Positions 423-17,570 of a stretch of DNA of 20,000 nt are shown piece by piece. The position numbers and the translations under genes were made by a program. This DNA is from an uncultured virus (IMG/VR IMGVR_UViG_3300027901_000780) (taxonomy: Duplodnaviria > Heunggongvirae > Uroviricota > Caudoviricetes), in the IMG/VR virus record IMGVR_UViG_3300027901_000780; one strand, given 5' to 3'. Within the stretch, counting starts at the first letter, position 1; every line of letters starts with the position of its first letter. The notes under the pieces are model-generated. The model had not been told where the DNA came from. It saw only the letters and a program-made list of their open reading frames with translations, and did not search any database.

Positions 423-1127
423 ATGAATAATATTAATGAAACAATTAAAATAGGAATGGTGGGAACACATGGTATTGGAAAAACTGAATATGTTAAGATG
501 TTGTATAATTGGTTCATTAATGATAATAGTATAAAATATACAAAAGATGATATTGCATATATATATGAAATAGTTAGGGATTGTCCATATCAAGTAAATG
601 AAAAGACATCATTAAAGGCACAAAAATGGATTCTTGATAATCAAATTGATAGAGAAAGACATTTTTATGAATTAAATAAAAAAATTATAATAACTGATAG
701 AACAGTTATAGATAATTTTGCATATTTATTATATGCAAAGAGGGTATCAGCAAAAGATATGAAAGTTAAAGATGTTGTAAAGTATGCGGGTGATGTTGAT
801 TTTTGGTTGGATGTTCATCCATATAATATAATATTTTATATAAGGATACCTAATAATTTAGAATATAATGAAATAACTATATATGATGATGGTTTTAGGT
901 CTATAAATAAGAAATTTCAATTAGAAATAGATAAAATAATTGAAGTAATATTAATTAATAGATTTAATTTAAATGTGATAGATTATTATGAAATTGATGA
1001 AGAATATGTAAGGATTCATAAATATAATAATATATTTATGATTAATGCTGATTATGGTAATTTAACAGAAGGGTTTAATAAGATATTAGAGGTAATAAAG
1101 AAATATAATGGGATGGGGTTGATATAG
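423..1127 (+). CDS. P-loop NTPase of the AAA_28/NadR-like nucleotide kinase type
   Basis: Walker A GTHGIGKT near the N-terminus, IITDRTVIDNFAY motif and DDGFR lid motif, all typical of this family. Confidence 0.8.
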   Translation: MNNINETIKIGMVGTHGIGKTEYVKMLYNWFINDNSIKYTKDDIAYIYEIVRDCPYQVNEKTSLKAQKWILDNQIDRERHFYELNKKIIITDRTVIDNFAYLLYAKRVSAKDMKVKDVVKYAGDVDFWLDVHPYNIIFYIRIPNNLEYNEITIYDDGFRSINKKFQLEIDKIIEVILINRFNLNVIDYYEIDEEYVRIHKYNNIFMINADYGNLTEGFNKILEVIKKYNGMGLI

Positions 1128-1939
1128 TGCCATTTTCAAATGAAACTGATGAGGAAATAAAAGAGAGAACAATGGAAATTATTAAAATTAGTGATGAAGA
1201 TAAATATTTGATAGAACAATTAAAGAAAAACATTAAGAATGGTGTAAGAAAGAGTAGAATAAAATCAGTTGTTTATTATAAGAATAGAGGACATTGGGGA
1301 GATAATAAATTTAGAGGAAATACAACAGGAAAATTATTAATAGATTTATTTAACTATTATTTACCAACTAAGGTATATGATCCAATGGAAGGAAGTGGAA
1401 CAGTAAGAGATGTATGTATAGAAGCAGAGATAGATTATATTGGGAATGATTTAATAAGTGGGGGTTATGATTTATTATATTTACCAGAATTGAGATTATT
1501 AAAGAATTTAAAGGTGGAGTTAATTGATTTTATTTTCTTTCATCCGCCATATTGGGACATTATAAAGTATTATGATTTGTATAATACAAATAAGGATGAT
1601 TGTTTAAGTGGGTGTGAAACATATAAAGAATATTTAGAATCTTTAAGATTATGTATAGATATATTATGGCAAATATTAAGAAAAGGTGGGCATTTGGTTA
1701 TACAATTAGGAGATAAAAGAAAGGATAATAGATATTATCCAATAACATTTGATATATATCAAAGATTAAGTAATTTATTTATAATACCAAATCAATTATA
1801 TTTAGAACAGATAATAATAAAAGTACAAGAGTATTATAAAAATGGGACAGAAGGTGTTGGTATTGAAGGGTATAATATGTTTGGAACACCAATAATACCA
1901 ATAAATCATGAATATATATTAATATTAAGGAAGATTTAA
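1127..1939 (+). CDS. Amino (N6-adenine/N4-cytosine) DNA methyltransferase with MPF-starting N-terminal extension
   Basis: SAM-binding motif I DPMEGSGT followed by catalytic motif IV HPPY. GTG start overlaps the upstream TAG (TAGTG), with GGGGTTGA SD upstream. Confidence 0.85.
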   Translation: MPFSNETDEEIKERTMEIIKISDEDKYLIEQLKKNIKNGVRKSRIKSVVYYKNRGHWGDNKFRGNTTGKLLIDLFNYYLPTKVYDPMEGSGTVRDVCIEAEIDYIGNDLISGGYDLLYLPELRLLKNLKVELIDFIFFHPPYWDIIKYYDLYNTNKDDCLSGCETYKEYLESLRLCIDILWQILRKGGHLVIQLGDKRKDNRYYPITFDIYQRLSNLFIIPNQLYLEQIIIKVQEYYKNGTEGVGIEGYNMFGTPIIPINHEYILILRKI

Positions 1940-1942
1940 AAG

Positions 1943-2119
1943 ATGCCATTTGAAAAAATAATTGATGAGATTGATGATAATAATAAATCTAAAAAGAAAC
2001 CTAAATATATTAAAAAATGTATTAAATGTAATAAAGATATGATAGGAAAAAAGAAGGGAAATATTATAACATATTTTCATAAAGAATGTAGGTATGGATT
2101 ATTAGTGGTGATAAATTAA
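1943..2119 (+). CDS. Small Zn-finger protein (58 aa, MPF start), absent from the ORF track
   Basis: Manual translation MPFEKIIDEIDDNNKSKKKPKYIKKCIKCNKDMIGKKKGNIITYFHKECRYGLLVVIN has CxxC...HxxC and exactly fills the gap between two genes. Confidence 0.75.
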   Translation: MPFEKIIDEIDDNNKSKKKPKYIKKCIKCNKDMIGKKKGNIITYFHKECRYGLLVVIN

Positions 2120-2120
2120 T

Positions 2121-2375
2121 ATGAGTAAGGTATTAGTATTAACAGATTTACAAGTATATTTATTATTAAATAAGTTACTACATTCATGTGGTCATTGTAT
2201 TAGAAGTCCTAAAGAGAGAAATTGTAGAGAGTGTGAATGGAAAACACTAATATTAGAATTATATGAGCCAAAAGACCAAGAAGAAGAAGAATATTTAAGT
2301 CGTTATGATATTGATGAACCATTACCTTTATATGATATTAGAAAAGGAATGAATGAGAGGATGAAACCAAAATGA
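2121..2375 (+). CDS. Small Zn-binding hypothetical protein
   Basis: CGHC...CREC; GGTGA SD upstream; ATGA overlap with the next gene. Confidence 0.75.
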   Translation: MSKVLVLTDLQVYLLLNKLLHSCGHCIRSPKERNCRECEWKTLILELYEPKDQEEEEYLSRYDIDEPLPLYDIRKGMNERMKPK

Positions 2376-2872
2376 GTAGAGTACTAACAAAAGATGAACA
2401 GGGAATTATATGTGATGGTTGTTGTAGATCAATAGAAGATTTTATGATAGAAAAAATGGTATTATATAGAAAATATAAGTGGAAAAATGAAGAAGGAAAA
2501 TATTATTTAAAAATTGGAGAAAGACCAAAAGAAATACCAAATTATAAGTTTTGGAGAGCAAGATTACTTAAATTTCATAATGAAGAATGTGTAAAAAAGA
2601 GATGTGAAATGTTTAATAAGGTATGTGGGGATAATGATGGATTATGTTATAGTAAGAAGAAAGGAACAAAATGTTATTTAGTAGTTATATGTAGATTTAT
2701 TAATTTAGTTATATATTTAGAAAGAGATTTAGATTATCAACAAAAGAATATTGAAAGATTAAAAAGATTAGGGTTATATATAGAACCAGAAGATAAGAGA
2801 TATTGTAAGAAATGTGGTTATATGATGCACAAAGATTTTATTAAAGAACATGAAGCAAAGTGTAAAAAATAG
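2372..2872 (+). CDS. Cys-rich hypothetical protein with C-terminal C2HC-like finger
   Basis: CDGC, HNEEC and CKKC...H...C motifs. Confidence 0.75.
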   Translation: MSRVLTKDEQGIICDGCCRSIEDFMIEKMVLYRKYKWKNEEGKYYLKIGERPKEIPNYKFWRARLLKFHNEECVKKRCEMFNKVCGDNDGLCYSKKKGTKCYLVVICRFINLVIYLERDLDYQQKNIERLKRLGLYIEPEDKRYCKKCGYMMHKDFIKEHEAKCKK

Positions 2873-2875
2873 GAG

Positions 2876-3523
2876 ATGAATAAATTGAATGGAGATAAAG
2901 AGAAAAGGTTTGGAATAGTAAATTATTTTGAAATAGAAATGAATAATGGAGAAATAAAAGTATTAATGGAACATTGTCCTAAATGTGAGAGTATTTTAGA
3001 TAAATATGAACCAAATAGGTGTAAGTGGGTTGATTGTAATTGGAATATAAAAAGAGAGGAAATAATAGGTTCAGTATTATTAATAGGGAGTATGAGATTT
3101 AATAAGTTATTCTTTGAATTAGAGAAACAATTAACATTTTTTGGATATAATATAATAATGCCATATATAGATGGTATATATAATAAAAGTAATTATTCTA
3201 AAGAACAATGGAATTATTTAGAGTTACATATATTAAAGAAGATTGATTTAGTAGATGCGGTATTTGTTATAAATGATAAAATGGATGTTAGTGATGAAGA
3301 AGGTTATATTGGAGAACATACAAAAGAAGAAATTTTATATACAATACTAACAAAGAGTAATAGTAATTATGAAGATTGGTGGAAATATATTGGTAAAATA
3401 TACAAGATTGATGTATATAAAATATTAGAAAAGGATAATGTAAGTAGTAAAATACAAAAATGGAATAATTGGGGAATGAATTTTCATAGTGAAGAAATAA
3501 TGAATCTTATTAAGGCATTATAA
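2876..3523 (+). CDS. Zn-ribbon plus nucleoside 2-deoxyribosyltransferase-like (NDT superfamily) domain
   Basis: CPKC...C-C N-terminal finger, then LIGSMRF...KIDLVDAVFVIN...GYIGEHTKEEI, a pattern I associate with phage NDT-like proteins. Confidence 0.55.
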   Translation: MNKLNGDKEKRFGIVNYFEIEMNNGEIKVLMEHCPKCESILDKYEPNRCKWVDCNWNIKREEIIGSVLLIGSMRFNKLFFELEKQLTFFGYNIIMPYIDGIYNKSNYSKEQWNYLELHILKKIDLVDAVFVINDKMDVSDEEGYIGEHTKEEILYTILTKSNSNYEDWWKYIGKIYKIDVYKILEKDNVSSKIQKWNNWGMNFHSEEIMNLIKAL

Positions 3524-3569
3524 GGGAGAAGATATGGTATAGAATATATTTTTGTGATGATGAATAAAC

Positions 3570-3595
3570 CTCTAATTAATTGATAGAGTTTTTTT
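3570..3595 (+). terminator. Short hairpin plus T-tract, putative terminator
   Basis: CTCTA-ATTAATTGA-TAGAG followed by T7 in one of the few intergenic gaps. Confidence 0.45.
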
Positions 3596-3672
3596 CATAT
3601 TTTCTCTATTAATATGAAGAAGAAATGTAGAACTGAACAAAAATATAAATATATTTAATAATGGTGATGTAT

Positions 3673-4233
3673 ATGAAATATACAGAAGAATTTCATAATA
3701 TATATATATTAATAAGAGATGAAGTATTACTCTTTATAAAAAGAAATAATAATGGAGTAGAATCAGAATTTATACATTATTATATTAGAAATTTAAAAGA
3801 AAATCCAAGAAATGATAAAGATAAGAAATATAAGATATTAAATTTTGAAGAAAGACTTGATGGATGGGGTTTTCATATTAAAATTAATTATTATTGTGAA
3901 ATATTACAGAAGGTATTAAATGAATTAGTAAGAAGAAGTATAATAACAATAAAAGAATTTGATAAGTATATATTAACAGAAGTAGGATTGGGGTTAATTA
4001 ATTTAGAAATAGAAAATAAACCACATATTTTTCCATTAGATAAGATGATTAAAATAAATAAGGCAACGGTAGGACAAAAATGGTTATATATGGTAAAAGA
4101 ATTAGGGGGTATGGGAAATATGTTATGGGAAAATATAGATGTAGATGTATTAATGGATTCATTTGCCAGTAGGATAATGAAGGAAACAATGGAATTAATG
4201 ATGTTAATAAGAAAAAGGAGAGAAAATAAATGA
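3673..4233 (+). CDS. Hypothetical protein with probable winged-helix domain
   Basis: LNELVRRSIITIK...YILTEVG resembles a wHTH recognition helix and wing. Start moved from 3661 to ATG 3673 because GGTGA at 3663 is the SD. Confidence 0.6.
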   Translation: MKYTEEFHNIYILIRDEVLLFIKRNNNGVESEFIHYYIRNLKENPRNDKDKKYKILNFEERLDGWGFHIKINYYCEILQKVLNELVRRSIITIKEFDKYILTEVGLGLINLEIENKPHIFPLDKMIKINKATVGQKWLYMVKELGGMGNMLWENIDVDVLMDSFASRIMKETMELMMLIRKRRENK

Positions 4234-4715
4234 ATAATGATGAATTTATAAAGAAATTAGAAAGTTATAAATTTGTGGATAGGGTAATATCATTTTTTGA
4301 AGGAGAAAAGAAAGTATTTAGAAAGGTTAAAAATCCATATTTAAAGATTGGATTTAAAGATATAGATGTAAATAATATGTTTATAGTGAAGATAACAGAG
4401 AGAGGAATTTATATAGTAAGAAATTTTGGATTAAGTATAAATGTATATGCTGAAAGTATTAATGATGATATAGAAGGATGTAAAAATAAATTAATTTTAG
4501 ATATTATTAGTACATTAGATGAGATTGATTATATATTAAAAATTAATGAAAGTGATGTAACATGTGATACTTGTAATAGAAGGTATAATGAAGATAATAT
4601 AAAAAGATGTCCTTTTGGGGTAATAGTATGTTATAAGTGTGAAAATAATCCAGATAAGTGTGATTATATAAGTTTTAATCAGTCATGTACAAATAAATGT
4701 GGTAAAAAAATATAA
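4230..4715 (+). CDS. Hypothetical protein with Cys-rich C-terminal Zn-binding domain
   Basis: CDTC...C...CYKC...C...C...C; ATGA overlap with the upstream gene. Confidence 0.75.
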   Translation: MNNDEFIKKLESYKFVDRVISFFEGEKKVFRKVKNPYLKIGFKDIDVNNMFIVKITERGIYIVRNFGLSINVYAESINDDIEGCKNKLILDIISTLDEIDYILKINESDVTCDTCNRRYNEDNIKRCPFGVIVCYKCENNPDKCDYISFNQSCTNKCGKKI

Positions 4716-4737
4716 GTGAATTAGAAGGTATTAAGGC

Positions 4738-5103
4738 TTGAAATTAAAAAAGAAAAAAAAGAATAATAATAATAATTATTTTAGTATAATAGTAGAAAAG
4801 GAAAAGGATAAAGAAGATAAATTATATTATAATATACATTTTAAATATCATAAATTTAGTAAGAGTGATATAATGTATGCAATATTACATTTATTTTTTA
4901 ATGATGTAATGAAAGCAATTAGGAAAAATAAAAATAAACATAATTTAGATGAAAAGAAAGATAAAAAAACTATAAGGATGATTGCTTATCAATCATTAAT
5001 TAATCAAATAAATGGTAATCTTTTAAGACTTTTAAAGAATATAAATAATAATTTAGAAAATAAAAAAGATAATAATAAGGAAGAGTTTAATTATTTTATA
5101 TAG
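4738..5103 (+). CDS. Hypothetical Lys/Asn-rich protein
   Basis: 121-aa ORF with TTG start, filling the operon gap. Confidence 0.6.
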   Translation: MKLKKKKKNNNNNYFSIIVEKEKDKEDKLYYNIHFKYHKFSKSDIMYAILHLFFNDVMKAIRKNKNKHNLDEKKDKKTIRMIAYQSLINQINGNLLRLLKNINNNLENKKDNNKEEFNYFI

Positions 5104-5116
5104 GGAGATGATATAT

Positions 5117-5989
5117 ATGCCATTTGATAAAATAGGAGAAAAGAAAGAAGAAAAAATAGAAATTGGTAGTAGTAGTGAATTAGAAAATAAAGAAATATCA
5201 AAAGAGGAAGATTCAATAAATGTTGATGAATTAGAAAAATTGGATATAAATAGAGTAGTAATGGAAGTAGCAAAACCATTAGTGGAAAAAATTGAAAAAT
5301 TAGAAAAAAATATATTAGATAGTAAAATATATAAAAATGAATTAGTGAATCAGGTAGTAGATAATTTACTAAATTTAATAGTTCCATTAAAAGAGTTTAA
5401 TGGAACATATATAGACTTAAATAAAAATTTAATTAATACAAATAATAAATTAGTTAATTCTATTAATGAATTATTAAAAAATATAAAAGATTTAGCAAAT
5501 GATTTAAATGATGAATTTATGGTAATGGTTAATACAATGAGAACAGTTGAATCATTAGTAAGAATGGTTGAATCATTAATATTAAAGTTAGATGTTAGAC
5601 CAGTAATTAATTTAAGTCCAATAATAGAAGTTAAAATAGATGAAAAGAATAAAGTTATTCCAATAAAACCAAAGAAAGAACCAGTAAAATCAATAAAAAA
5701 GGAGGAAGATGATACAATTAGAACACCATTAAAACCAGATGAAATGATAGAAGAACTTGATGAATTTACAGATAAAAAGGTGCAAAAAATAGTTGGTGGA
5801 GATGAAAAGTTGATAATGTTTGAAGGAGAAATGATAGGTATAAAAATTATTACTATAAAGAAATTAATGGAAAAGACTGGTTTAACTAAGAAAGATATTA
5901 TAAAATTTTCAAAGGAAAAAGGATATAAGATAACAAAAACAAGGATATATACTGATATTAAAGTAAAAAATTTAATAGAAAAAGAATAA
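5117..5989 (+). CDS. Coiled-coil protein with MPF start and possible C-terminal HTH-like domain
   Basis: GGAGATGA SD favours ATG 5117 (MPFDKIGEKKEE) over 5108. Heptad-rich centre; C-terminal TIKKLMEKTGLTKKDII is HTH-like. Confidence 0.7.
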   Translation: MPFDKIGEKKEEKIEIGSSSELENKEISKEEDSINVDELEKLDINRVVMEVAKPLVEKIEKLEKNILDSKIYKNELVNQVVDNLLNLIVPLKEFNGTYIDLNKNLINTNNKLVNSINELLKNIKDLANDLNDEFMVMVNTMRTVESLVRMVESLILKLDVRPVINLSPIIEVKIDEKNKVIPIKPKKEPVKSIKKEEDDTIRTPLKPDEMIEELDEFTDKKVQKIVGGDEKLIMFEGEMIGIKIITIKKLMEKTGLTKKDIIKFSKEKGYKITKTRIYTDIKVKNLIEKE

Positions 5990-6003
5990 AATGGAGGAAT
6001 AAT

Positions 6004-6204
6004 ATGAGTAAATTGGAGATAGCATATTTTATATTTGGATTTGTATCTATAATATATGCAGTAATTTTTATTTTTAATAACTTTTTTGTAGAAGATATAG
6101 GTACAATAGATATATTATTAAATGTAACAGCAGGTATAACATTTCTTATATTTGGATTTATATTTTCTATTTTATCTTTTGAAGAATTTAGAAAGTCAAT
6201 ATAG
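6004..6204 (+). CDS. Small membrane protein with two TM helices
   Basis: Two hydrophobic ~20-aa segments; GGAGG SD. Confidence 0.75.
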   Translation: MSKLEIAYFIFGFVSIIYAVIFIFNNFFVEDIGTIDILLNVTAGITFLIFGFIFSILSFEEFRKSI

Positions 6205-6219
6205 ATGGGGTGATTAACA

Positions 6220-6819
6220 TTGGTTAATATAATGGAAATTAATAAAAATGAATATTATGTTAATACAGTTGTTGTATTAAATAAAGAAATATATAAAGAT
6301 AAAAAAATTTATGCTATAATTGGTACAAGAGAACCAAATAGATATGAAAAGGATATTGCATATAATTTAGGAAGGAGGTTTGCAATAAAGGATATAGTAG
6401 TTATAACTGGTGGTGCAAATGGAATAGATTATTATGCTACTGATGGATGTTTAAGAAATGGTGGAAATGTTATATGGGTTTTAGCAAAGTTTAAGGATGA
6501 TATATTAATTCCACAAAAGAATTTTGATTATGCTTTGAATAATATAGAAAATGGATTAGATATAATAATAATTGATTATATAGAAGAATTAACATTAAAA
6601 CAACAATATTTAGAGAGAAATATAGTAATATTAGAAACAGCAACAAAAATATTTATACCAATGTATTATGATGATTGTATGAAAAAGAAATATGGAGTAT
6701 ATAAACAAATAAAAAATAATTATTTAAAAAATAAAAATATATATAATAAAGATAATAATAAAAAATTTATATTTATGCACGATATAATAAGGGCAATAGG
6801 TAATAGTAATATATTTTAG
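6220..6819 (+). CDS. DprA/Smf-like SLOG-fold protein
   Basis: AIIGTR, VITGGANGID and YLERN motifs match the DprA/Smf core; GGGGTGA SD. Confidence 0.75.
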   Translation: MVNIMEINKNEYYVNTVVVLNKEIYKDKKIYAIIGTREPNRYEKDIAYNLGRRFAIKDIVVITGGANGIDYYATDGCLRNGGNVIWVLAKFKDDILIPQKNFDYALNNIENGLDIIIIDYIEELTLKQQYLERNIVILETATKIFIPMYYDDCMKKKYGVYKQIKNNYLKNKNIYNKDNNKKFIFMHDIIRAIGNSNIF

Positions 6820-6831
6820 GATATGGTATAT

Positions 6832-8482: not shown

Positions 8483-8647
8483 ATGGTTAAGATGGCAAGA
8501 ATTATAATGGAAATTGAAGAATGTAGATAAGATGAGGTTGATACATATAAAAATAATAAATGGAATAAAAAAGAAGATATAGAACCAATATGGAATGAAA
8601 TAAGAATTATTATAAAAAAGAGAAAAAAAGAAATGGGGTTAATATAA
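8483..8647 (+). pseudogene. Small gene with in-frame TAA at 8528
   Basis: AGGTGA SD and ATG; MVKMARIIMEIEECR*DEVDTYKNNKW...KKEMGLI ends in a TAATG overlap with the next gene. Confidence 0.5.
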
Positions 8648-9126
8648 TGCCAATTGTAACAGAAGATGATTTAAAAAAAGAGAAAGAATTAAGTGAATTT
8701 ATGAAGAAATATTATAATGAGTATTGGAATAATTTAAATAATCCAAATAAGACTGGATTAACATTAAGTGTTGATAGTGATATATTCAATTATTTAATTG
8801 ATAGAATAGAAAGAGAGAAGAATAATAAAATATTTATTGGTGTAGTAAAAGGTATTAGGTTTGATGCTTGGGATAAGAGTGAGAGTGAAAGAGATATAAT
8901 ATATTTTATTAAGAAAGGATATGATGAAAGACATTGGGTATATTTATTAAATGGTGTAACTGGTTATGAAAGTATTGCAGTAGAAAGAATAAAAGAACCA
9001 TGTATAGAAGGATGTAAAGGTTGGATAGCATGTATGGGGACAGATAGGAGATGGGATAAATTAATTATACCACATGAAGAAATGGATAAAGTTAGGGAAC
9101 ATATAAAAGAATTGGGTGTTAGTTGA
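8647..9126 (+). CDS. Hypothetical protein (MPI start)
   Basis: 159-aa ORF with conserved-looking GVTGYES and WIACMGTDRRWD segments; TAATG translational coupling. Confidence 0.75.
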   Translation: MPIVTEDDLKKEKELSEFMKKYYNEYWNNLNNPNKTGLTLSVDSDIFNYLIDRIEREKNNKIFIGVVKGIRFDAWDKSESERDIIYFIKKGYDERHWVYLLNGVTGYESIAVERIKEPCIEGCKGWIACMGTDRRWDKLIIPHEEMDKVREHIKELGVS

Positions 9127-10223: not shown

Positions 10224-10484
10224 ATGCCATTTAGTAGTGTTGATGATGATAAAAAAGAAGAAAAACCAAAAAAGATAGTTAAAAAAGAAGAAAAGAAAGA
10301 AGAATATAAAGGTGATCCTCATAATATAAATATAGAAACAAGAGAAGAATATGATGAAAGAGGATTAGAACAAAGAGTAAAATCAATAGAAAATTCACTA
10401 TTAGATATTAATTTAAAGATTGAGGCAATATTTAGTAGTGATAAAAAAGCAAAGAAGATGTATGAAAAGATAAAGAAAAGTTAG
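10224..10484 (+). CDS. Small charged coiled-coil protein (MPF start)
   Basis: MPFSSVDDDKKEEK...LEQRVKSIENSLLDINLKIE; GGAGATGA SD. Confidence 0.75.
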   Translation: MPFSSVDDDKKEEKPKKIVKKEEKKEEYKGDPHNINIETREEYDERGLEQRVKSIENSLLDINLKIEAIFSSDKKAKKMYEKIKKS

Positions 10485-10495: not shown

Positions 10496-11191
10496 TTGCC
10501 ATTTACAGGTACAAATGAAATAGAAAAAATAGAAAAATCAGAAGAAAAAACAAAAAGAAAAAGGAAAACAGCAGGAGAAATATTTACTGAACAACAACAA
10601 GAAAAAGAGTTAAAAGATAAACTTGGTATATCTGGTGATATAGATGTGAAAATTGATGAATTAGGATTAAAAGGATATACTGGTATTGTATTAGGAGAAA
10701 AGTGTAAATATTTTGTAGAAGGTATGATTAATAAGGATAAACAAATACAGGCAACCTCAATAGATTTAACAGTTGGGACAATTTTTAGGTTAAGAGAAAG
10801 GAAGAAGCAAAATATTACAATAGATTTTGATAATAGTAAGAGGGTATTAGCAGAAGCAATATTATATAATAAAAATAAATTGGGAATATGGGAATTAAAG
10901 AAATCATCAGTATATAAAGGTAGAACAAATGAAATAATTACTTGTCCAGCAAATTTTAGTGGTATAGTATTACCAAGATCAACTTTATTAAGAAGTGGAA
11001 TAGAGATAATAGGAACATGGATTGATCCAACATTTCATGGACATATAGAGTTTTTAATTAAACCACATTTAAATATTGATATATATAAAAATGCAAGACT
11101 TGTACAAGTGTCAATGTTTAAAGGTGAAATACCAGATAAAAGATATTGGTATGCAATAAAAGGGACATATCAAGAAAATAGGGTGATATAA
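10496..11191 (+). CDS. dut: Trimeric dUTPase/dCTP deaminase superfamily protein, probably archaeal-type dUTPase, with ~60-aa MPF extension
   Basis: SIDLTV, PRSTLLRSG, WIDPTFHG, ARLVQ and GTYQ motifs. No Glu at the position equivalent to the E. coli Dcd catalytic E138. Confidence 0.8.
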   Translation: MPFTGTNEIEKIEKSEEKTKRKRKTAGEIFTEQQQEKELKDKLGISGDIDVKIDELGLKGYTGIVLGEKCKYFVEGMINKDKQIQATSIDLTVGTIFRLRERKKQNITIDFDNSKRVLAEAILYNKNKLGIWELKKSSVYKGRTNEIITCPANFSGIVLPRSTLLRSGIEIIGTWIDPTFHGHIEFLIKPHLNIDIYKNARLVQVSMFKGEIPDKRYWYAIKGTYQENRVI

Positions 11192-12244
11192 ATGCCTTTT
11201 GTTGATTCAGATAATATTGGAATTATAGAGGAAACGAAAACAATAGAAAAATTTAATTTTAATGAAAGAGATATAATAAAGGATGTAATAGAAAAACAGG
11301 GATTCTCAGTAATAGTGACAACACCAGATAAGTTAATACTTGATTCAAGAAATGAAATATGTTGTAAAAGGAGTTATTGCAGTAGTTATAATAAAAAGTG
11401 CTACTGTCCTCCATATTCTTTATCATTAAAACAGTTTGATGAATTAAGACAAAAATATAAATATTGTATAATAATAATAAGTGTAGTAAGTCCAGAAGAA
11501 TGGAGTTATGTATTAAAGGGAAATGAGTTTGATGAAAAGAAACATAAGGTATATTTTAGAAGGTGGGTACAAAATATAACATGGGGTATTTATAGAAAGA
11601 AGTTATATCCGATATTTAGGGATACTGATAGTTATTTATTATTTGGTACATCAGTAAGTAGGTGTAACAAATGTAGGGAAATGAAAAAGGGAGAATATAT
11701 TAATAATAAATGTAAAACAGGGATTGCATGGTCATCACCAGAAGCGGTAGGAGTAAATATTGGAAAAACATTAGAGCAATTTAATTTTTCATTAAAATTT
11801 GGTGTAACATATGATATAACGAGGGTGGCAACTATTTTAACAAATGAAAATATACATTATAATGAATATATTAATATAATAAAAGTTCCAAAATATAAAC
11901 AAACATTTATGTCATTAAAAGAAATGGTTAATTTTATGTCAAAGGAAATAGAAGATAAAGTTTATATATTAAAGACAAAAACAAAACATATTACAGTTAA
12001 TCAATGGAAAGAATTAAATGGAAAGAAGGTAGATAATATAGATTGGAAATTATGGGATTATTTTATCATATTTGAATGTAATTATAAGGGTTATGGTAAA
12101 GGTAGAGAAAGAAATATTGAAAAAATAAAAGAGATAGCATTTATGAATAATTTTCCTTATGTAGTGATAATAGATGAAATATTTAATAGGGTAGAATGTG
12201 ACTTTTTGAAACCAAATACACCATTTGGGGTAGCATTAATATGA
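11192..12244 (+). CDS. DUF2284-like predicted metal-binding protein with C-terminal extra domain (MPF start)
   Basis: C...CSSY...CPPY, CxxC...C and SPEAVGVNI match the DUF2284 pattern as I recall it. Confidence 0.7.
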   Translation: MPFVDSDNIGIIEETKTIEKFNFNERDIIKDVIEKQGFSVIVTTPDKLILDSRNEICCKRSYCSSYNKKCYCPPYSLSLKQFDELRQKYKYCIIIISVVSPEEWSYVLKGNEFDEKKHKVYFRRWVQNITWGIYRKKLYPIFRDTDSYLLFGTSVSRCNKCREMKKGEYINNKCKTGIAWSSPEAVGVNIGKTLEQFNFSLKFGVTYDITRVATILTNENIHYNEYINIIKVPKYKQTFMSLKEMVNFMSKEIEDKVYILKTKTKHITVNQWKELNGKKVDNIDWKLWDYFIIFECNYKGYGKGRERNIEKIKEIAFMNNFPYVVIIDEIFNRVECDFLKPNTPFGVALI

Positions 12245-13062
12245 ATGATATAGAATTAACAATAGAACCAAGTTATAAATGTATGTTAGGTTGTAAAATA
12301 TGTAGTAGTATTGGTATAGATGAAAATATTATACTAAATAATGAAGAGTTAGAAGCAATTTTATTAAAGATAGGAAATAAAGTAAAAGTTATAAGGTTGA
12401 GTGGAGGAGAACCATTATTAATACCTATTAAAAAATTAATTAGTTATATAGAATTAATCAATGAATATTGTAATGAATTGGAAACATTTGAAATATTAAC
12501 GAGTGGTGTTATTAGAAATTTGTATATGTCAAATAGGTTTTTAGTGGTTTGTAAGGTAGAGGCAATGTTTCATAGGACAAATGCTAAAAATAAGAGAGTT
12601 TGTATTACTTTATATGGAGAACATTTATTTCATGAAGAAATAACTAATATAAAAGGAAGTTATGAATTAACATTGGGAGTTATAAATACTTTAAGATCAA
12701 ATAATATAGATGTATATGTTGAAACACCAATAATATCTTATGGTAGTATGGGTATTATTGATATATGTAGATTAAATAATTTACAATTAAAAGTATTAAA
12801 ATTATTAAAACATGGAAGGGCGAAAAATTTACCAGTTTTTTCAAAGAGGAAGCAACAGTATGTTGTTAAGTTAATGAAGGAAAAATATAATGATATAATT
12901 ATATCAAATTCATTATTGGATAATAATATTTGTAAGTGTGATAGAAAAAATAAGATAACAATATTACCAGATGGGACATTTGTTCATTGTGTTGGTACAA
13001 AACAATTAAGAATACAAGATAATATATTAGATATAAAAGGGAAAATATGTGAGATGATATAA
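12241..13062 (+). CDS. Radical SAM enzyme with truncated Twitch/SPASM-like tail
   Basis: CMLGCKIC (CxxxCxxC), LSGGEP and C-terminal C...ITILPDG...C. Confidence 0.9.
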   Translation: MNDIELTIEPSYKCMLGCKICSSIGIDENIILNNEELEAILLKIGNKVKVIRLSGGEPLLIPIKKLISYIELINEYCNELETFEILTSGVIRNLYMSNRFLVVCKVEAMFHRTNAKNKRVCITLYGEHLFHEEITNIKGSYELTLGVINTLRSNNIDVYVETPIISYGSMGIIDICRLNNLQLKVLKLLKHGRAKNLPVFSKRKQQYVVKLMKEKYNDIIISNSLLDNNICKCDRKNKITILPDGTFVHCVGTKQLRIQDNILDIKGKICEMI

Positions 13063-13871
13063 TGCCATTTGTTAGTAGTGAAGAAAATATAATAGATGGT
13101 GCAAAAGAATTTATATTAGATTATTTAAAAGAGAATGAGGGGGAATCATTTACTGCTGAATTTTTGGCAGAACAATATGGTTATAAGGTTTCTTATGTAA
13201 AAACTGCATTGAATAGACTATTAAAAGAAAATAAAATAAAAAGAAAGAAGGTAGAAGATAAATTTGAATATTGGTATGAAATACCAAAAAAGAAAAAGAA
13301 AATAAAGGTTATGCCATTTTCGATAACTATATCATTTAAATATCCACAAACAGATAAACATCCAGATGGAAGATTTATAGAAGCAAGATCAAGAGTATTT
13401 TATGCAGTACCAAGTGAATTAGAGAGAATAAAGAAATTTGCTGTAAAAGAAACTGTAAAATTTCTATCTTCATATAGTAGTATATTATTATTGGGCGAAT
13501 TAAGTAAATATAGGAAAACTGGTATTACTGAATTAGAGGATGAACCAATTGAAAAAGAATTAGAGGAAGTAAAAGAATATACAGTAGTTATGGATATATT
13601 TGATTGGGATTATAGTAAGGTAAGATTTGAAGAAATAAAAACATATGATATAAGTGGTAATAAGTTAAAGGATGAAATGAAAAAACCACATTTAGGTATA
13701 TTAAGGGCTATGTTATTACAAGAAGAATTAGAAAGAAAAGGAATAAAAATGTCAATAGAAGAAATAATGGAAAAAGAGAAAGCAGGAGAAAAAGAAATAG
13801 GTGGAATTAAATTTAAAGGATTTATAAGTAGATGGGAAAAAATATATAGGGAAACATATGGTGAAGAATAG
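13062..13871 (+). CDS. Protein with N-terminal winged-helix domain (MPF start)
   Basis: ILDYLKEN...FTAEFLAEQYG...VKTALNRLLKENKIKR...YW is a wHTH pattern. Confidence 0.75.
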   Translation: MPFVSSEENIIDGAKEFILDYLKENEGESFTAEFLAEQYGYKVSYVKTALNRLLKENKIKRKKVEDKFEYWYEIPKKKKKIKVMPFSITISFKYPQTDKHPDGRFIEARSRVFYAVPSELERIKKFAVKETVKFLSSYSSILLLGELSKYRKTGITELEDEPIEKELEEVKEYTVVMDIFDWDYSKVRFEEIKTYDISGNKLKDEMKKPHLGILRAMLLQEELERKGIKMSIEEIMEKEKAGEKEIGGIKFKGFISRWEKIYRETYGEE

Positions 13872-14482
13872 TGGAAATAGATATTAATAGTATATCAAAG
13901 GTAAATGAAAAAATGGGTAAGTATTCTATTAGTGAAATAATAAATATATTACTTTATAATAGGGATGTTGATATTGAATTAATGAATGAAAGATATAAGA
14001 ATAAAGAAATAGAAATACCAGAATTAAGTTTATATTATATTAGTTTTGATTATGATGATAATAATGAGTTAAGAAAATTGAAAATGTATTTTAATGTTAA
14101 ATATATATTTGATAATAAAGATATAATAATACATAAAACTGTTCGTGGGGTACATTTTATAGTAGATAATATATTTCCAACAGATATTGGAATAAAAAAT
14201 AGTATTAACATTAGACATGCAGTAAATGATGATAAATGGAGAATATTTTGTGGAGAAGGAAGGGGAGGAGATACATTATATTTTACATCACAAGTAATAT
14301 GGAGTGTAGATAATGATAATATAATAATACACAAAGAACATAAATATAATACAATTGATGAAAAAAATTTACTTTGTAATCCTTTTTTCAGTAAAATAAG
14401 ATTAAAGAAAAAAAATAATAATACTAAAAATATAGAAAAAAGAAAGAAGAAAAGAAGAAATATGAGAATAAATAAAAAATAA
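13871..14482 (+). CDS. Small protein with AEP (archaeo-eukaryotic primase)-like motifs and basic tail
   Basis: hhhDxD (ISFDYD), TxRGxH (TVRGVH) and downstream DD. GTG start overlapping TAG. Confidence 0.5.
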   Translation: MEIDINSISKVNEKMGKYSISEIINILLYNRDVDIELMNERYKNKEIEIPELSLYYISFDYDDNNELRKLKMYFNVKYIFDNKDIIIHKTVRGVHFIVDNIFPTDIGIKNSINIRHAVNDDKWRIFCGEGRGGDTLYFTSQVIWSVDNDNIIIHKEHKYNTIDEKNLLCNPFFSKIRLKKKNNNTKNIEKRKKKRRNMRINKK

Positions 14483-14552
14483 AATAACCAATAAAGTGAA
14501 GGTCAAATTTCCATTGAGTTTTCGGGAATTTCTTAAAGTTTTGGTTAATTTT
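14481..14552. terminator. Long imperfect hairpin at the end of the operon
   Basis: AAAATAACCAA...TTGGTTAATTTT outer stem and AAATTTCC/GGGAATTT inner stem. Confidence 0.4.
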
Positions 14553-14568
14553 AGGGAAGAAAAACAAT

Positions 14569-14761
14569 GATACTTATTTATAAGTGTATTGGACTGACAA
14601 TCTACTACACATCTAATACACATATTATAACGGTATTAGAACCATCTAAGATAGATACCCTTTATAAATGTTTCGGTCAGATATAACATTGTTATAACCT
14701 ATTCTAAGTCACTTGGGGATGCTCAGTTTATCGTTTTGATACTCATATATAAGTGTTTTGG
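14569..14761 (-). promoter_or_regulatory. Three direct repeats (starts 14569, 14654, 14738) resembling archaeal BRE-TATA promoters on the minus strand
   Basis: + strand GATACTTATTTATAAGTGTATTGG, GATACCCTTTATAAATGTTTCGG and GATACTCATATATAAGTGTTTTGG. Reverse complements begin CCAATACACTTATAAA, CCGAAACATTTATAAA and CCAAAACACTTATATA. Confidence 0.6.
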
Positions 14762-14894
14762 GAGAATGAAAATTAAGTGCCGATCAGTTTAATGAGTATA
14801 TATGAAGAAATACATGAATAGAAATATCATGTATGATGAATCATTATACCAAAACAAAACACAAAACACAAATAAAGAAAAAAAGGATGAATGA

Positions 14895-15464
14895 ATGAAA
14901 ATGGCAAAAGATAGTTTAGATACAGAAGATAAAGAATTAATGGAAGTATTAGAAAGTATAGGAATAGGAAATGTAAAGACATCTCGAGAATTTATAGAAC
15001 ATTTAGAAGCATTAGAGAAAGAAAAAGGAATTGCTGGATTCGGTGGTAAAGAGAAAGTCATCTATAAGGATAAATTTGATTCTATTTTTAAATCCATAGT
15101 AAAATATGTTAAATCAAGTAACTTTTTTACTACGGGAATAATTAGACAACATCTTATAGATGAAAAGGAATTAAAGGAAACAACACAAGTAAGAAAGAGA
15201 AAAGGAAAAGAGAAAAAGGTTAAAGTGTTAGTTACCAATGATAAAGAGGAAAATGTATTTAGCGATAATGTAATGAGAGCATTGTTAAATGAAATGTGTA
15301 AAGATAAAATTGTTATCAGATGGTTACCACCAGAAGATAGCGATGACGGATGGACTACAAGAGATAAGAAGAATGAGAAGACTGGAGAGGTAACTACATA
15401 CAAAATACCTATTAAGACAGCCTATTTTATCAATCCTAAGCATGATGTATTTAAAGGAAAATAA
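14895..15464 (+). CDS. Basic, possibly DNA-binding hypothetical protein (stand-alone gene)
   Basis: 189-aa ORF (start may be ATG 14901) flanked by intergenic DNA; wHTH-like spacing (FTTGIIRQHL...MRALLNEMCKDKIV). Confidence 0.75.
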   Translation: MKMAKDSLDTEDKELMEVLESIGIGNVKTSREFIEHLEALEKEKGIAGFGGKEKVIYKDKFDSIFKSIVKYVKSSNFFTTGIIRQHLIDEKELKETTQVRKRKGKEKKVKVLVTNDKEENVFSDNVMRALLNEMCKDKIVIRWLPPEDSDDGWTTRDKKNEKTGEVTTYKIPIKTAYFINPKHDVFKGK

Positions 15465-15491
15465 AATTCCTTTAATTTTAACCTTTTTTTT
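15465..15491 (+). terminator. Pyrimidine/T-tract terminator, archaeal type
   Basis: TTCCTTTAATTTTAACCTTTTTTTT immediately after the stop codon. Confidence 0.5.
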
Positions 15492-15553
15492 AAATGATGA
15501 ATTTTTAAAAAGTAAAAACATTAAACAACATAAATATAAAAGGATTGATAAAT

Positions 15554-15823
15554 ATGGATGAAATACCTTCTAATGAAGAAATACAAAAAATATTAAAAAA
15601 AGAATTTATAAGAGAAATACCAGAAGAATTTGATAACAGAAATAAACTAAGTGAATCGAATACAAAAACAAAGATATGGTATTCATCACAAATGATGGAT
15701 TCAATAATAAATGTATTTCAAATTGAATATAATAAAGGAAATAAATTCATATTACCTATACTTAAATCGTTAAGGGATACTAAAACAACTATGTTAAATA
15801 AAATGAAAGAACTAAAAAAATAA
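15554..15823 (+). CDS. Hypothetical protein
   Basis: ORF with AGGATTGA SD-like sequence favouring ATG 15554 over TTG 15545. Confidence 0.65.
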   Translation: MDEIPSNEEIQKILKKEFIREIPEEFDNRNKLSESNTKTKIWYSSQMMDSIINVFQIEYNKGNKFILPILKSLRDTKTTMLNKMKELKK

Positions 15824-15844
15824 ATAAATTTAATAATATCGTAT

Positions 15845-15901
15845 AATTCCCTTATGTGATCGTTAATGCAATAAATAACGATTGCATAAGGGAATTTTTT
15901 T
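15845..15901 (+). terminator. 21-bp stem-loop followed by T-tract (terminator or structured RNA)
   Basis: AATTCCCTTATGTGATCGTTA / 10-nt loop / TAACGATTGCATAAGGGAATT; the two DNA mismatches are G:U pairs in + strand RNA. Confidence 0.7.
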
Positions 15902-16207
15902 ATTTAATATAAAATTAAGAAAAGTAAATAAATGTAATAATATAGTTGATATATCCTAATCATTATAGATATATTATAATGGAGGAATATATATCAATAA
16001 AATGATGAGTTATATTATATAAAGGATGAAATATAAGAAGATATTCCACCAATAAAATATTTTTACCATTTTTATCACTAAAAGAAAAAAACAAATAGAA
16101 AATAAATAAAATACATTAAACTTTATATTATATAATAATGATGATTATTGATATTTATAATAATAATAATCAATAAATAAATAAATAATAAAGGAGATGA
16201 ATAAATA

Positions 16208-16693
16208 ATGCCATTTGCAAGTGCAGATGATATGGAAGAAAAGAAGGAAGAAAAGAAAGTAGAAAAATCAGAAAAAGTAGAAAAACCAAAGAAAACAGTA
16301 CAAATTAAATTAGAAGAACAAAGAGGAAATTTAGTTGATAAAATAAATCAAATAATAGAAGCAAGAATAGATGAGAAATTTAGATATTTAGAAGAAAGAT
16401 TAGATAAAATTGAAAAACAAATTAATGAATGGAAAGTGGAAGAATCTGAACAAGAAACAAAAGAAGAAGAAATGTCAGATGAAGAAGAAGGTGATGATGA
16501 AGAAGAAACAACTAATCCTTGTGGTGAAGATACATGTGAAATATGTTTTGATGATATAACTTGTACTGAATGTGTTAATGCAAAGTTAGAAAGAGTAGGA
16601 GATAAGACAAATGCAAAGTTAGTATTTAGAAAATGTCTTAGAAATGAAGGTGAAGAACCAAGACATATAGAATGTGATCAAGATGAACAATAA
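16208..16693 (+). CDS. Acidic coiled-coil protein with Cys-rich C-terminus (MPF start)
   Basis: MPFASADDMEEKKEE, heptads, Glu/Asp tract, then C-CEIC-CTEC-C-H-C; AAGGAG SD. Confidence 0.8.
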   Translation: MPFASADDMEEKKEEKKVEKSEKVEKPKKTVQIKLEEQRGNLVDKINQIIEARIDEKFRYLEERLDKIEKQINEWKVEESEQETKEEEMSDEEEGDDEEETTNPCGEDTCEICFDDITCTECVNAKLERVGDKTNAKLVFRKCLRNEGEEPRHIECDQDEQ

Positions 16694-16904
16694 TAAAATA
16701 ATATTATCAAAAAATCAATATATAGAAAAGGTAACGGATATAATAATGGGAAAAATACCGACAAGTAATATGAATATATATCATTTTTTAGTTGAAACAT
16801 TAAAGATAGGATTATTTTCTTGGAATAATGATATAATTGAATTAGTAGAGAAATATTTAGGAAAAGATATAATTGAAGAAATTGATAAATATATGTATGA
16901 ATAA
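16683..16904 (+). CDS. Small hypothetical protein
   Basis: ORF overlapping the previous stop (ATG 16683; track start 16674), followed by a T-tract. Confidence 0.6.
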   Translation: MNNNKIILSKNQYIEKVTDIIMGKIPTSNMNIYHFLVETLKIGLFSWNNDIIELVEKYLGKDIIEEIDKYMYE

Positions 16905-16958
16905 AATATAAATTTTTTTTAAACAAATAAATTTAATAAAGAAAAATGGGGTGATAAT

Positions 16959-17570
16959 ATTCCGTTTATGACACAAGAACAATTTGAAGAAAAAGAAGAA
17001 ATAATTAAAGAAGAAAAAAAGAAATATACTATGTATAAAGGAGATGAATATTATAAATTAGCAATATATTCAAAAGCATGTGAAAAGTGTGGAACAGTAG
17101 TAAAAACTAATAATGCCTATGTAATAGTATGGGATTTAAGTAAGGATAATTATTGTAGTTGTTTTGTATGTAAAGGATGTTCTATTAGTGCAGAAAAAGA
17201 AATAGAAAATAGTATAAATGTAGGAAGAATAAAAAAGGTAGATATGGAATTTTTGAAATATTGTCAAATACAAAGTAAAAAAGTAATAAGTAGAGAAAAG
17301 ACAGATGATTTAAAGAAATTAATAATTGGAATACAAGATATAGTAGTTTCATTTTCAGATGAAATAATAGTAGAAATAAAACAATTTAATGAAAGTTTAT
17401 TAAGTACAATTATTAGATTAGCAGAAAAAGAACCAAGTTTTTATCAAGAAATAAAAGATGAAATAATAAATAATAATAAAAATTTATTAGATTATATGGG
17501 AAAATTAACTAATAATTTTGATAATATAATACAAAATACTACATTAATGTTAAAATTAATTCAGAGTTGA
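16959..17570 (+). CDS. Zn-finger plus helical protein; probable ATT start giving MPF N-terminus (otherwise ATG 16968)
   Basis: CEKC...CxCxxCxxC. GGGGTGA-TAAT-ATT-CCG-TTT-ATG is in frame. Confidence 0.7.
   Translation: MPFMTQEQFEEKEEIIKEEKKKYTMYKGDEYYKLAIYSKACEKCGTVVKTNNAYVIVWDLSKDNYCSCFVCKGCSISAEKEIENSINVGRIKKVDMEFLKYCQIQSKKVISREKTDDLKKLIIGIQDIVVSFSDEIIVEIKQFNESLLSTIIRLAEKEPSFYQEIKDEIINNNKNLLDYMGKLTNNFDNIIQNTTLMLKLIQS

What the first reader, a model, noticed from the sequence alone, without database searches (positions are those of the whole stretch)
1127..16970. Shared N-terminal 'MPF + acidic/Lys tail' tag on 8-10 unrelated proteins: candidate targeting or docking system
Seen in the sequence: MPFSNETDEE (1127, GTG, methyltransferase), MPFEKIIDEIDD (1943, Zn finger), MPFDKIGEKKEE (5117), MPFSSVDDDKKEE (10224), MPFTGTNEIEK (10496, TTG, dUTPase), MPFVDSDN (11192, DUF2284), MPFVSSEE (13062, wHTH) and MPFASADDMEE (16208). 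Also (M)PFMTQEQFEE (16959, ATT) and the variant MPIVTEDD (8647). That is about a quarter of the genes, although Pro codons are scarce in this C-poor strand. The start codon and the Pro codon (CCA/CCT/CCG) vary, suggesting selection on the peptide rather than on a DNA motif. In the enzymes the tag sits on a low-complexity extension ahead of the catalytic core. Established: Met aminopeptidase removes Met before Pro, which would expose Pro-Phe. Precedents for short terminal address tags are the T4 internal-protein capsid-targeting sequence, the Pro/N-degron read by Gid4, and the SSB C-terminal DIPF docking motif. Inference: a virus-encoded tag that sends a subset of proteins to the virion or a replication compartment, docks them on a hub protein, or controls their turnover. 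I know of no described MPF system.
Basis: partly seen in the sequence, partly recalled or inferred. Interest (0 to 1): 0.9.

Follow-up and report, generated by a model that had tools for sequence, protein, structure and literature searches.

The report
Shared MPF tag on virus proteins
About a quarter of the genes in this stretch of an uncultured marine-sediment virus start with the same Met-Pro-Phe-plus-acidic peptide, which its only known relative keeps, so it looks like a common address or docking label whose reader is still unknown.

Summary
8 of 33 genes start NTG-CCN-TTT (MPF) behind a Shine-Dalgarno site. A ninth probably starts at ATT 16959, and one variant starts MPI (expected 0.03; p about 1e-17).

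It reads MPF-x3-[DEN]-[DE/NQ] at the tip of a hydrophilic extension.

The only known relative is about 50-60% identical. It keeps MPF in 4 of 5 orthologues, with synonymous Pro-codon changes, and has MSF in the fifth. More distant and cellular homologues of the methyltransferase and the dCTP-deaminase-like enzyme lack both tag and extension.

Selection on the peptide is therefore the better reading: a lineage-specific docking or address tag. No reader was found, and targeting, packaging or turnover remain untested.

One rival is not excluded. CCAUUU can pair with the gene's own Shine-Dalgarno site. Against it, the motif always sits at codons 2-3.

The virus is probably archaeal. My literature searches found no MPF system. 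The scan has noted analogous shared tags, with other peptides, on other viral DNA.

The parts
1127..1939 (+). Tagged gene 1: DNA N6/N4 methyltransferase. GTG start, MPFSNETDEE; the tag tip and extension are residues 1-46.
   Evidence: PF01555, E 2e-7; pLDDT below 50 for residues 1-6, about 90 for the core
1943..2119 (+). Tagged gene 2: 58-aa Cys-rich small protein, MPFEKIIDEIDD.
   Evidence: no family hit
5117..5989 (+). Tagged gene 3: 290-aa protein of unknown family, MPFDKIGEKKEE. The ATG at 5108 lies inside the SD and is not the start.
10224..10484 (+). Tagged gene 4: 86-aa Lys/Glu-rich protein, MPFSSVDDDKKEE. Its orthologue in L001 (6246-6626) starts MPFAESNEE, with CCG instead of CCA.
10496..11191 (+). 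Tagged gene 5: dCTP deaminase/dUTPase-like enzyme. TTG start, MPFTGTNEIEK, on an extension of about 70 aa.
   Evidence: (PF22769, E 2e-19)
11192..12244 (+). Tagged gene 6: DUF2284 metal-binding-type protein with an extra C-terminal part, MPFVDSDN (CCT). The Pfam domain starts at residue 46.
13062..13871 (+). Tagged gene 7: winged-helix N-domain plus a conserved unknown domain, MPFVSSEE. The L001 orthologue has MSF (TCA).
16208..16693 (+). Tagged gene 8: 161-aa Lys/Glu-rich protein with a Cys-rich C-terminus, MPFASADDMEE.
16959..17570 (+). Probable tagged gene 9: ATT-CCG-TTT, giving (M)PFMTQEQFEE if ATT is the start. The SD GGTGAT lies 3 nt before ATT and 12 nt before the ATG at 16968.
   Evidence: the start codon is inferred, not shown
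8647..9126 (+). Variant: MPIVTEDD. The L001 orthologue (5512-5943) keeps MPIVT through synonymous CCA>CCG and ATT>ATA changes.
18255..18275 (+). The only internal tag-like peptide found (PFSNDEE, helicase residues 227-233). It resembles the methyltransferase tag PFSNETDEE and may be chance (my rough estimate p about 0.08).

Best explanation
The shared start is a peptide-level short linear motif that is specific to this virus lineage: Met-Pro-Phe, three variable small or aliphatic residues, then acidic residues at positions 7-8. In the enzymes I could model it sits at the free tip of a hydrophilic, poorly ordered N-terminal extension.

Methionine aminopeptidase is expected to remove the Met. 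This is the established rule for a small second residue such as Pro, and I infer it here. That would leave a free, non-acetylatable Pro-Phe end followed by negative charge.

I read this as a common docking or address peptide recognised by one partner. Its carriers are a DNA methyltransferase, a dCTP-deaminase/dUTPase-like enzyme, a DUF2284 protein, winged-helix and Cys-rich proteins, and Lys/Glu-rich small proteins. All are encoded in the nucleotide-metabolism and replication block. The most likely consequence is therefore recruitment of these proteins to a shared replication or DNA-modification complex. The acidic tails ending in an aromatic residue that dock phage and bacterial replication proteins work in a similar way.

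Shown: the motif, its excess over chance, its conservation, and its lineage-specific extension in two enzymes. Inferred: Met removal, a reader, and where the proteins go.
For: - Excess over chance: 8 (9 with ATT) of 33 genes against 0.03 expected.
- Strict register: all tags occupy codons 2-3. Anti-SD-like pentamers (CAYYT) within 40 nt of the 33 starts occur only at that position, in 7 tagged genes, and once at -19.
- Position-specific acidity: residue 8 is D/E in 11 of 13 MPF N-termini from the two viruses and N/Q in the other 2. Within the window it is 7 of 9 tagged against 3 of 23 untagged, p 0.001.
- Residues 4-30 of tagged proteins are more acidic and less hydrophobic (p 2e-4 each).
- Conservation at about 50-60% protein identity: MPF is kept in 4 of 5 orthologue pairs while residues 4-6 and the linkers change. 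The dCTP-deaminase linker is 26 residues shorter in the relative.
- Synonymous changes inside the tag: CCA/CCG and CCT/CCA, and CCA-ATT/CCG-ATA in the MPIVT pair.
- The extension is lineage-specific. 4 more distant dUTPase-type homologues, the named ones from Heimdall-/Gerdarchaeota MAGs, and 37 more distant methyltransferase homologues have no MPF. They have either no extension or a different N-domain.
- AlphaFold: the cores are confident, while the tips are not docked in cis (pLDDT 42 for residues 1-10 of the deaminase-like enzyme, below 50 for residues 1-6 of the methyltransferase).
- Tag Pro codons follow genome usage, as expected if only the amino acid matters.
Against: - No reader was identified and no binding test could be run.
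- Only two viruses of this lineage exist in the databases searched, so conservation rests on five orthologue pairs.
- One orthologue has lost the Pro (MSF).
- Only 20 kb of a 74-77 kb genome is visible. I cannot say whether structural genes, a protease or a scaffold also carry the tag.
- Every Pro codon begins CC. In this C-poor RNA that inevitably pairs with the G-rich Shine-Dalgarno site, so peptide-level and RNA-level selection cannot be fully separated by sequence alone.
- In protein 13062 the tag abuts a folded winged helix rather than a long linker.
Confidence: 0.45

Rival explanations
1. Cis-acting RNA element. CCAUUU (or UCAUUU) directly after the start codon pairs, through G-C, A-U and G-U pairs, with the gene's own Shine-Dalgarno sequence (AGAUGG / AGGUGA). 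The small hairpin would throttle initiation, or make it depend on an upstream ribosome (translational coupling) or on temperature. FourU-type RNA thermometers work this way (recalled). The peptide would be a by-product.
For: - RNAfold of -25..+18: mean pairing probability of +4..+9 is 0.66 in 9 tagged against 0.36 in 24 other genes (MWU p 0.009). MFE is -3.4 against -2.0 kcal/mol (p 0.07).
- The relative shows the same trend (0.73 against 0.32), and the MSF variant still pairs (-6.6 kcal/mol).
- Strong hairpins are predicted at 1127, 11192 and 16959 (-4.6 to -7.0).
- 8 of the 9 tagged genes follow the upstream gene closely: overlap to 15 nt for seven, 54 nt for 16959.
- Precedent for start-associated nucleotide repeats on a subset of phage genes: the Cluster K SAS (PMC3203893, passages read).
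Against: - An SD-masking sequence could sit at many positions and in any frame. All 9 (plus 3 in L001) sit exactly at codons 2-3, and no other register is used near any of the 33 starts.
- Predicted stems are weak and uneven: MFE -0.1 to -7.0, and 4 of 9 have pairing probability below 0.5.
- This reading does not explain the acidic residues at positions 7-8, the hydrophilic 40-75 aa extensions on enzymes, or why more distant homologues lack them.
- Any CC in this C-poor, G-rich RNA will be predicted to pair, so the folding difference is expected under the peptide reading too.
Confidence: 0.2
2. Capsid-targeting signal of the phage T4 kind. The tag loads a set of unrelated proteins into the procapsid through the scaffold, and may be clipped off by the head protease. 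The proteins would then be delivered with the DNA.
For: - It is formally the same design: a short N-terminal peptide shared by otherwise unrelated proteins (T4 CTS; PMC3012670, passages read).
- Earlier notes of this scan describe comparable tags in other archaeal-type viruses (unchecked leads).
Against: - The carriers are nucleotide-metabolism, DNA-modification and DNA-binding proteins encoded in the replication block, interleaved with untagged genes.
- No capsid, scaffold, portal or protease gene is in the window, so neither a tag-like scaffold end nor a cleavage site could be examined.
- No common cleavage motif is evident behind the tag.
Confidence: 0.12
3. Turnover signal (N-degron). The exposed Pro-Phe end is read directly, or exposes Phe after removal of Met-Pro or Pro. 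A host or viral protease system reads it, giving a set of early proteins a short, timed life.
For: - A free N-terminal residue plus an unstructured linker is what N-degron readers need (established for ClpS and GID4; recalled).
- Pro at position 2 in 10 of 33 genes.
- Flexible tips in the models.
Against: - No N-recognin is known to me in archaea. One search for N-degron, Gid4 and archaea gave 2 papers, neither of which describes such a system by its title or abstract start.
- ClpS-type readers disfavour nearby acidic residues (recalled).
- No protease or adaptor is in the window.
- The pattern is absent from five archaeal genomes that carry the closest dUTPase-type genes: 1 match in about 9.5 Mb against 3 for the reversed control. 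This gives no sign that this particular motif (MPF-x3-acidic-acidic) is common in those genomes, which may not be the host's.
Confidence: 0.1
4. No reader at all. Codons 2-3 (and the A/G-rich acidic codons after them) are selected only for their effect on initiation or early elongation, or on N-terminal stability. Pro blocks acetylation and most aminopeptidases.
For: - Early codons are known to change protein yield strongly (recalled).
- Residue 2 is Pro in 10 of 33 genes here and 5 of 25 in L001, including MPI and MPV forms.
Against: This does not explain the invariant Phe at position 3 in 13 of 13 MPF starts, the position-specific acidity at residues 7-8, or the added extensions on enzymes.
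Confidence: 0.08

Closest known systems
Phage T4 capsid targeting sequence (CTS) of the internal proteins IPI-III and Alt
   Same: A short N-terminal peptide shared by otherwise unrelated, fast-changing viral proteins serves as a common address (PMC3012670, passages read).
   Different: The peptide is different. The carriers here are replication, nucleotide-metabolism and DNA-binding proteins, not known virion proteins. No scaffold, protease or cleavage site was seen. The virus is unrelated and probably archaeal.
Acidic tails ending in an aromatic residue that dock replication proteins (E. coli SSB C-terminal ...DDDIPF; T7 gp2.5 and gp4 tails) - recalled, not from a call
   Same: A Pro-Phe at the extreme end of a flexible acidic stretch. 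The carriers act on DNA and nucleotides.
   Different: The polarity and topology are reversed: N-terminal instead of C-terminal, and many proteins carry the tail for one presumed reader instead of one hub carrying it for many readers.
Pro/N-degron read by GID4 (eukaryotes) - recalled
   Same: A free N-terminal Pro exposed by Met removal is the key determinant.
   Different: The known consensus has a small residue after Pro, not Phe plus acidic residues. The system is eukaryotic, and no reader is known in archaea or their viruses.
Start Associated Sequences of Cluster K mycobacteriophages (PMC3203893, passages read)
   Same: A short motif tied to the translation starts of a subset (11-19) of genes in a phage genome, of unknown function.
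   Different: SAS is a 13-bp nucleotide repeat upstream of the start that overlaps the ribosome-binding site. The MPF motif lies in codons 2-3 and tolerates synonymous changes.
Shared terminal tags noted earlier by this scan in other uncultured viruses (for example MSWxxILK on magrovirus-like proteins)
   Same: About a quarter of the genes carry one short terminal peptide on unrelated proteins.
   Different: The peptides and viruses are different. Those notes are unchecked AI notes and were used as leads only.

Membership tests
T4-type capsid targeting sequence | The same short N-terminal peptide on otherwise unrelated proteins of one virus | tested here: met
   8-9 of 33 genes; only three have family assignments, all different (PF01555, PF22769, PF10050)
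T4-type capsid targeting sequence | Carriers are packaged in the head through the scaffolding core | not testable with these tools
   No structural genes in the window and no proteomics. The carriers lie in the replication and nucleotide-metabolism block.
T4-type capsid targeting sequence | The tag is removed by the prohead protease at a consensus site | tested here: inconclusive
   No protease gene in the window. No common cleavage-like motif behind the tag in 13 N-termini.
Pro/N-degron (GID4 type) | Pro as the first residue after Met removal | tested here: met
   Pro is residue 2 in all tags. Met removal is inferred from the MetAP rule and was not shown.
Pro/N-degron (GID4 type) | A GID4-type reader in host or virus | not testable with these tools
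   The host genome is unknown. No such family among the window's proteins.
SSB-type acidic C-terminal tail | The acidic stretch ending in Pro-Phe lies at the C-terminus of one hub protein | tested here: not met
   The motif is N-terminal and sits on many proteins.
Start-associated nucleotide repeat (SAS-like) | A conserved nucleotide string independent of reading frame, upstream of the start | tested here: not met
   The motif is always at codons 2-3, and the third base of the Pro codon varies between orthologues.
SD-sequestering hairpin (FourU-like) | Complementarity to the gene's own Shine-Dalgarno site | tested here: met
   Pairing probability 0.66 against 0.36, p 0.009; same trend in L001
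SD-sequestering hairpin (FourU-like) | A stable hairpin in all members | tested here: not met
   MFE ranges from -0.1 to -7.0 kcal/mol; 4 of 9 have pairing probability below 0.5.

The most novel reading that the evidence does not exclude
An archaeal virus of marine sediments runs its own N-terminal address code. A free Pro-Phe end with acidic residues at positions 7-8 is read by a dedicated receptor, viral or host. The receptor gathers a changing set of DNA-modifying, nucleotide-metabolism and DNA-binding proteins at one site. That would be an N-terminus-reading system in an archaeal setting, with no described counterpart there. It would be one instance of a wider, undescribed habit of uncultured viruses to label about a quarter of their proteome with a private terminal tag.
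Probability: 0.3. Interest if true: 0.8.

Novelty: new variant of a known kind. Interest (0 to 1): 0.62.

Why it matters
Shared terminal address peptides are known from very few viruses, with the T4 internal proteins as the textbook case. If the peptide reading holds, this would be a second, unrelated design. It is N-terminal Pro-Phe plus acidic residues, carried by replication and nucleotide-metabolism proteins of a probably archaeal virus from a lineage with only two known members.

It would give a handle for finding the hub of an unknown viral replication or DNA-modification complex: pull down with the peptide. It would also be a simple, portable tag for sorting proteins in such systems.

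If the RNA reading holds instead, it would show how an extremely C-poor genome builds translational control out of the only CC-containing codon family.

Tried and rejected
- Whole genome: none is held. The window is not in viral contigs.
- Relatives in viral contigs sought with the DUF2284 protein, the winged-helix pair and the 14895 pair: none.
- HMMER over 1.84 billion representatives with the winged-helix pair: only the L001-type protein and two marginal hits. The lineage has two known members, so no deeper comparison was possible.
The 80 listed are all on different contigs, so no other virus with clustered tags was seen. This is weak because the list is truncated.
- Pattern ATG-CCN-TTY-N9-GAN-GAN in five archaeal genomes that carry the nearest dUTPase-type genes: 1 match in about 9.5 Mb against 3 for the reversed control. 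These genomes need not be the host.
- Complex prediction, intended as a screen of the deaminase tag against three conserved untagged proteins: tool not available, nothing folded.
- Sequencing runs: 4 DNA holders in 4 studies (marine sediment, seawater); no RNA holder listed.
- Rfam: no match. Repeats: only Lys/Glu-codon low complexity shared by the N-terminal regions of 5117, 10224 and 16208.
- Promoter and terminator consensus scan: not above shuffles.
- PDB sequence searches of three untagged proteins as possible readers: nothing below E 0.1.
- The internal MPF at 13311 is IPF in the relative, so I treat it as chance.
- The sub-threshold Pfam row for the 16968 protein (17.4 bits, cut-off 25) is treated as chance.
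- Literature: four searches returned no paper whose listed title or abstract start describes an MPF or N-terminal Pro-Phe tag system. I saw only the listings.

Full report
**What the window is.** The 20 kb are 21-26% G+C, and cytosine is only 5.9% of the + strand (A 9233, T 6055, G 3532, C 1180). All credible genes lie on the + strand, tightly packed. Most are preceded by GGAG / GGTGAT-type Shine-Dalgarno (SD) sequences. The window belongs to a contig of 74-77 kb.

Recognisable genes form a nucleotide-metabolism, DNA-modification and replication block:
- a thymidylate-kinase-like NTPase (423-1127);
- a DNA methyltransferase (1127-1939);
- a DprA/SLOG-like protein (6232-6819);
- a thymidylate-synthase-like enzyme whose best NCBIfam row is the methanogen type (9345-10208);
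- a dCTP-deaminase/dUTPase-like enzyme (10496-11191);
- a DUF2284 protein (11192-12244);
- a small radical SAM enzyme (12241-13062);
- an SF2 helicase (17577 onwards).

The nearest cellular relatives of the deaminase-like enzyme are all archaeal: Heimdall-/Gerdarchaeota, Bathyarchaeia and Aenigmatarchaeota MAGs. The DNA occurs in marine-sediment and seawater metagenome runs. An archaeal host is therefore likely but not shown. Cultured phages give only weak partial hits.

**The observation.** Each is the first start codon, or the one with an SD, just after an in-frame stop. In my curated set of 33 genes, 8 start NTG-CCN-TTT. A ninth (16959) does so if ATT is its start, and the SD spacing favours ATT (3 nt) over the ATG at 16968 (12 nt). 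Gene 8647 starts MPI.
- With Pro at 2.4% and Phe at 4.1% of residues, 0.03 MPF starts are expected (p 1e-17 for 8).
- Of 19 CCNTTY hexamers on the + strand, 8 lie directly behind such a start.
- Of 1086 NTG triplets, only the 8 starts and one internal site are followed by CCNTTY.

The tail is also real and more specific than "acidic". Among 13 MPF N-termini from this virus and its relative, residue 8 is D/E in 11 and N/Q in 2. Residue 7 is D/E/N in 10. In the window alone, residue 8 is acidic in 7 of 9 tagged against 3 of 23 untagged proteins (p 0.001). Residues 4-30 of tagged proteins are more acidic and less hydrophobic. The motif is therefore MPF-x3-[DEN]-[DE/NQ].

**Relatives.** The lineage is very sparsely sampled. 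Word-based searches of 5.8 billion proteins found one close relative each for the deaminase-like protein (53% identity), the DUF2284 protein (60%) and the methyltransferase (53%). A full HMMER search of 1.84 billion representatives with the winged-helix protein pair found only that relative. Four scans of IMG/VR found none.

A 12.5-kb metagenome contig of the relative (L001) is syntenic with window positions of about 4200-16000. Its orthologues start as follows:

| Window gene | Window start | Relative's start |
|---|---|---|
| 10224 | MPFSSVDDD | MPFAESNEE |
| 10496 (deaminase-like) | MPFTGTNEIE | MPFSIEEEE |
| 11192 (DUF2284) | MPFVDSDN | MPFVDAEE |
| 1127 (methyltransferase) | MPFSNETDEE | MPFIEEEEL (protein P0010) |
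| 8647 | MPIVTEDD | MPIVTKKE |
| 13062 (winged helix) | MPFVSSEE | MSFDSE |

So 4 of 5 MPF orthologues keep MPF. Around the conserved ATG-CCN-TTT the DNA has diverged. The Pro codon differs synonymously in 2 of the 3 MPF pairs with DNA, one start codon differs (TTG/ATG), and MPIVT is kept through two synonymous changes. The one loss is a single C>T change (CCA>TCA).

The linker behind the tag evolves fast: it is 26 residues shorter in the relative's deaminase. Four more distant dUTPase-type homologues and 37 more distant methyltransferase homologues have no MPF. They have either no extension or a different N-terminal domain. AlphaFold models give confident cores but pLDDT below 50 for the tips.

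CCAUUU, and the variant UCAUUU, is complementary with G-U pairs to the local SD (AGAUGG / AGGUGA). Folding -25..+18 gives a higher pairing probability for +4..+9 in tagged genes (0.66 against 0.36, p 0.009). The relative shows the same trend.

Against this rival:
- The stems are weak and uneven (-0.1 to -7.0 kcal/mol).
- Any CC in this G-rich, C-poor RNA will be predicted to pair.
- An SD mask could sit anywhere, yet anti-SD-like pentamers near the 33 starts occur only at codons 2-3 of tagged genes, and once at -19.
- It explains neither the acidic positions 7-8 nor the added extensions on enzymes.

I put the peptide-level readings together at about two thirds and the RNA hairpin at about one fifth.

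**How it most likely works.** By the MetAP rule the mature end would be Pro-Phe, a free secondary amine that cannot be acetylated (established knowledge; inferred here), followed by negative charge on a flexible arm. That is the anatomy of a docking peptide. The carriers are heterogeneous: a methyltransferase, a dUTPase-type enzyme, a DUF2284 protein, winged-helix and Cys-rich proteins, and Lys/Glu-rich small proteins. They are interleaved in operons with untagged genes, so the tag is not a transcription class.

Because the carriers all belong to the DNA and nucleotide block, I favour recruitment to a common replication or DNA-modification complex. This is analogous to acidic, aromatic-ended tails in phage and bacterial replisomes (recalled). 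T4-like head loading and timed turnover are less likely alternatives. No reader was found. The planned complex screen could not be run, and PDB searches of three untagged proteins gave nothing. The pattern is not enriched in five archaeal genomes carrying the nearest dUTPase genes.

**Novelty.** Four literature searches (listings only) returned nothing on an MPF or Pro-Phe N-terminal tag system. The general idea of a private terminal tag on many viral proteins is known from T4. This scan has also noted it on other viral DNA with other peptides (unchecked leads). I therefore rate this a new variant of a known kind, interesting but mechanistically open.

Noticed in passing
window 1-20000: Extreme strand composition: C is 5.9% and G 17.7% of the coding strand (GC skew 0.3-0.64 throughout), and all genes lie on one strand. 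The window also carries a dense set of nucleotide-metabolism and possible DNA-modification genes: a dNMP-kinase-like gene, a methyltransferase, a thymidylate-synthase-like gene with an N-terminal extension of about 125 aa, a dUTPase/dCTP-deaminase-like gene, DUF2284 and a radical SAM gene. This hints at modified DNA or unusual mutational pressure.
   Followed up: partly
window 14483-14894; L001 about 10521-10988: The only stretch that breaks the C-poverty (51 C in 412 nt). It is non-coding, the GC skew dips there, and it sits at the same place in the relative, just upstream of the best-conserved gene (14895, a TFE/TFIIE-alpha-like winged-helix lead at score 0.85). It may be an origin or a non-coding RNA. 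Rfam gave no match.
   Followed up: partly
window 15848-15905 and 3568-3600: Perfect stem-loops followed by runs of 7 T, at the ends of gene blocks. They look like terminators. The simple consensus scan did not list them, and its counts were not above shuffles.
   Followed up: partly
window 18255-18275: The helicase carries an internal RRPFSNDEEY, nearly the methyltransferase's tag (PFSNETDEE). It is the only internal PF-x(1-5)-acidic-acidic match in both viruses and may be chance.
   Followed up: partly
window 5108, 6220, 6823, 6971, 7789, 9336, 15545, 16674: The SD sequences (GGAGATGAT / GGTGAT) themselves contain in-frame ATG, GTG or TTG. Naive ORF calling therefore adds false MIYM-, MINM- and MVNIM-type N-termini, and the true starts are 9-12 nt downstream.
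   Followed up: yes
L001 2068-2625, 4209-4856, 3466-4203: The relative carries a phosphoribosyltransferase-like gene (PF00156) and a weak MazG-like gene that the window lacks. It also has a tandemly duplicated version of the window's 7370-7792 protein. It lacks the thymidylate-synthase-like gene and gene 5117, so accessory content turns over quickly.
   Followed up: partly
window 12241-13062: The small radical SAM enzyme lies between two tagged genes. Its best (far sub-threshold) NCBIfam rows are peptide-maturase types (HxsC, 39 bits against a cut-off of 268). Whether it acts on proteins or nucleotides is open.
   Followed up: no
window 13311-13319: An internal in-frame ATG-CCA-TTT lies inside gene 13062 (residues 84-86). 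The relative has IPF there, so it is probably chance rather than an internal start.
   Followed up: yes
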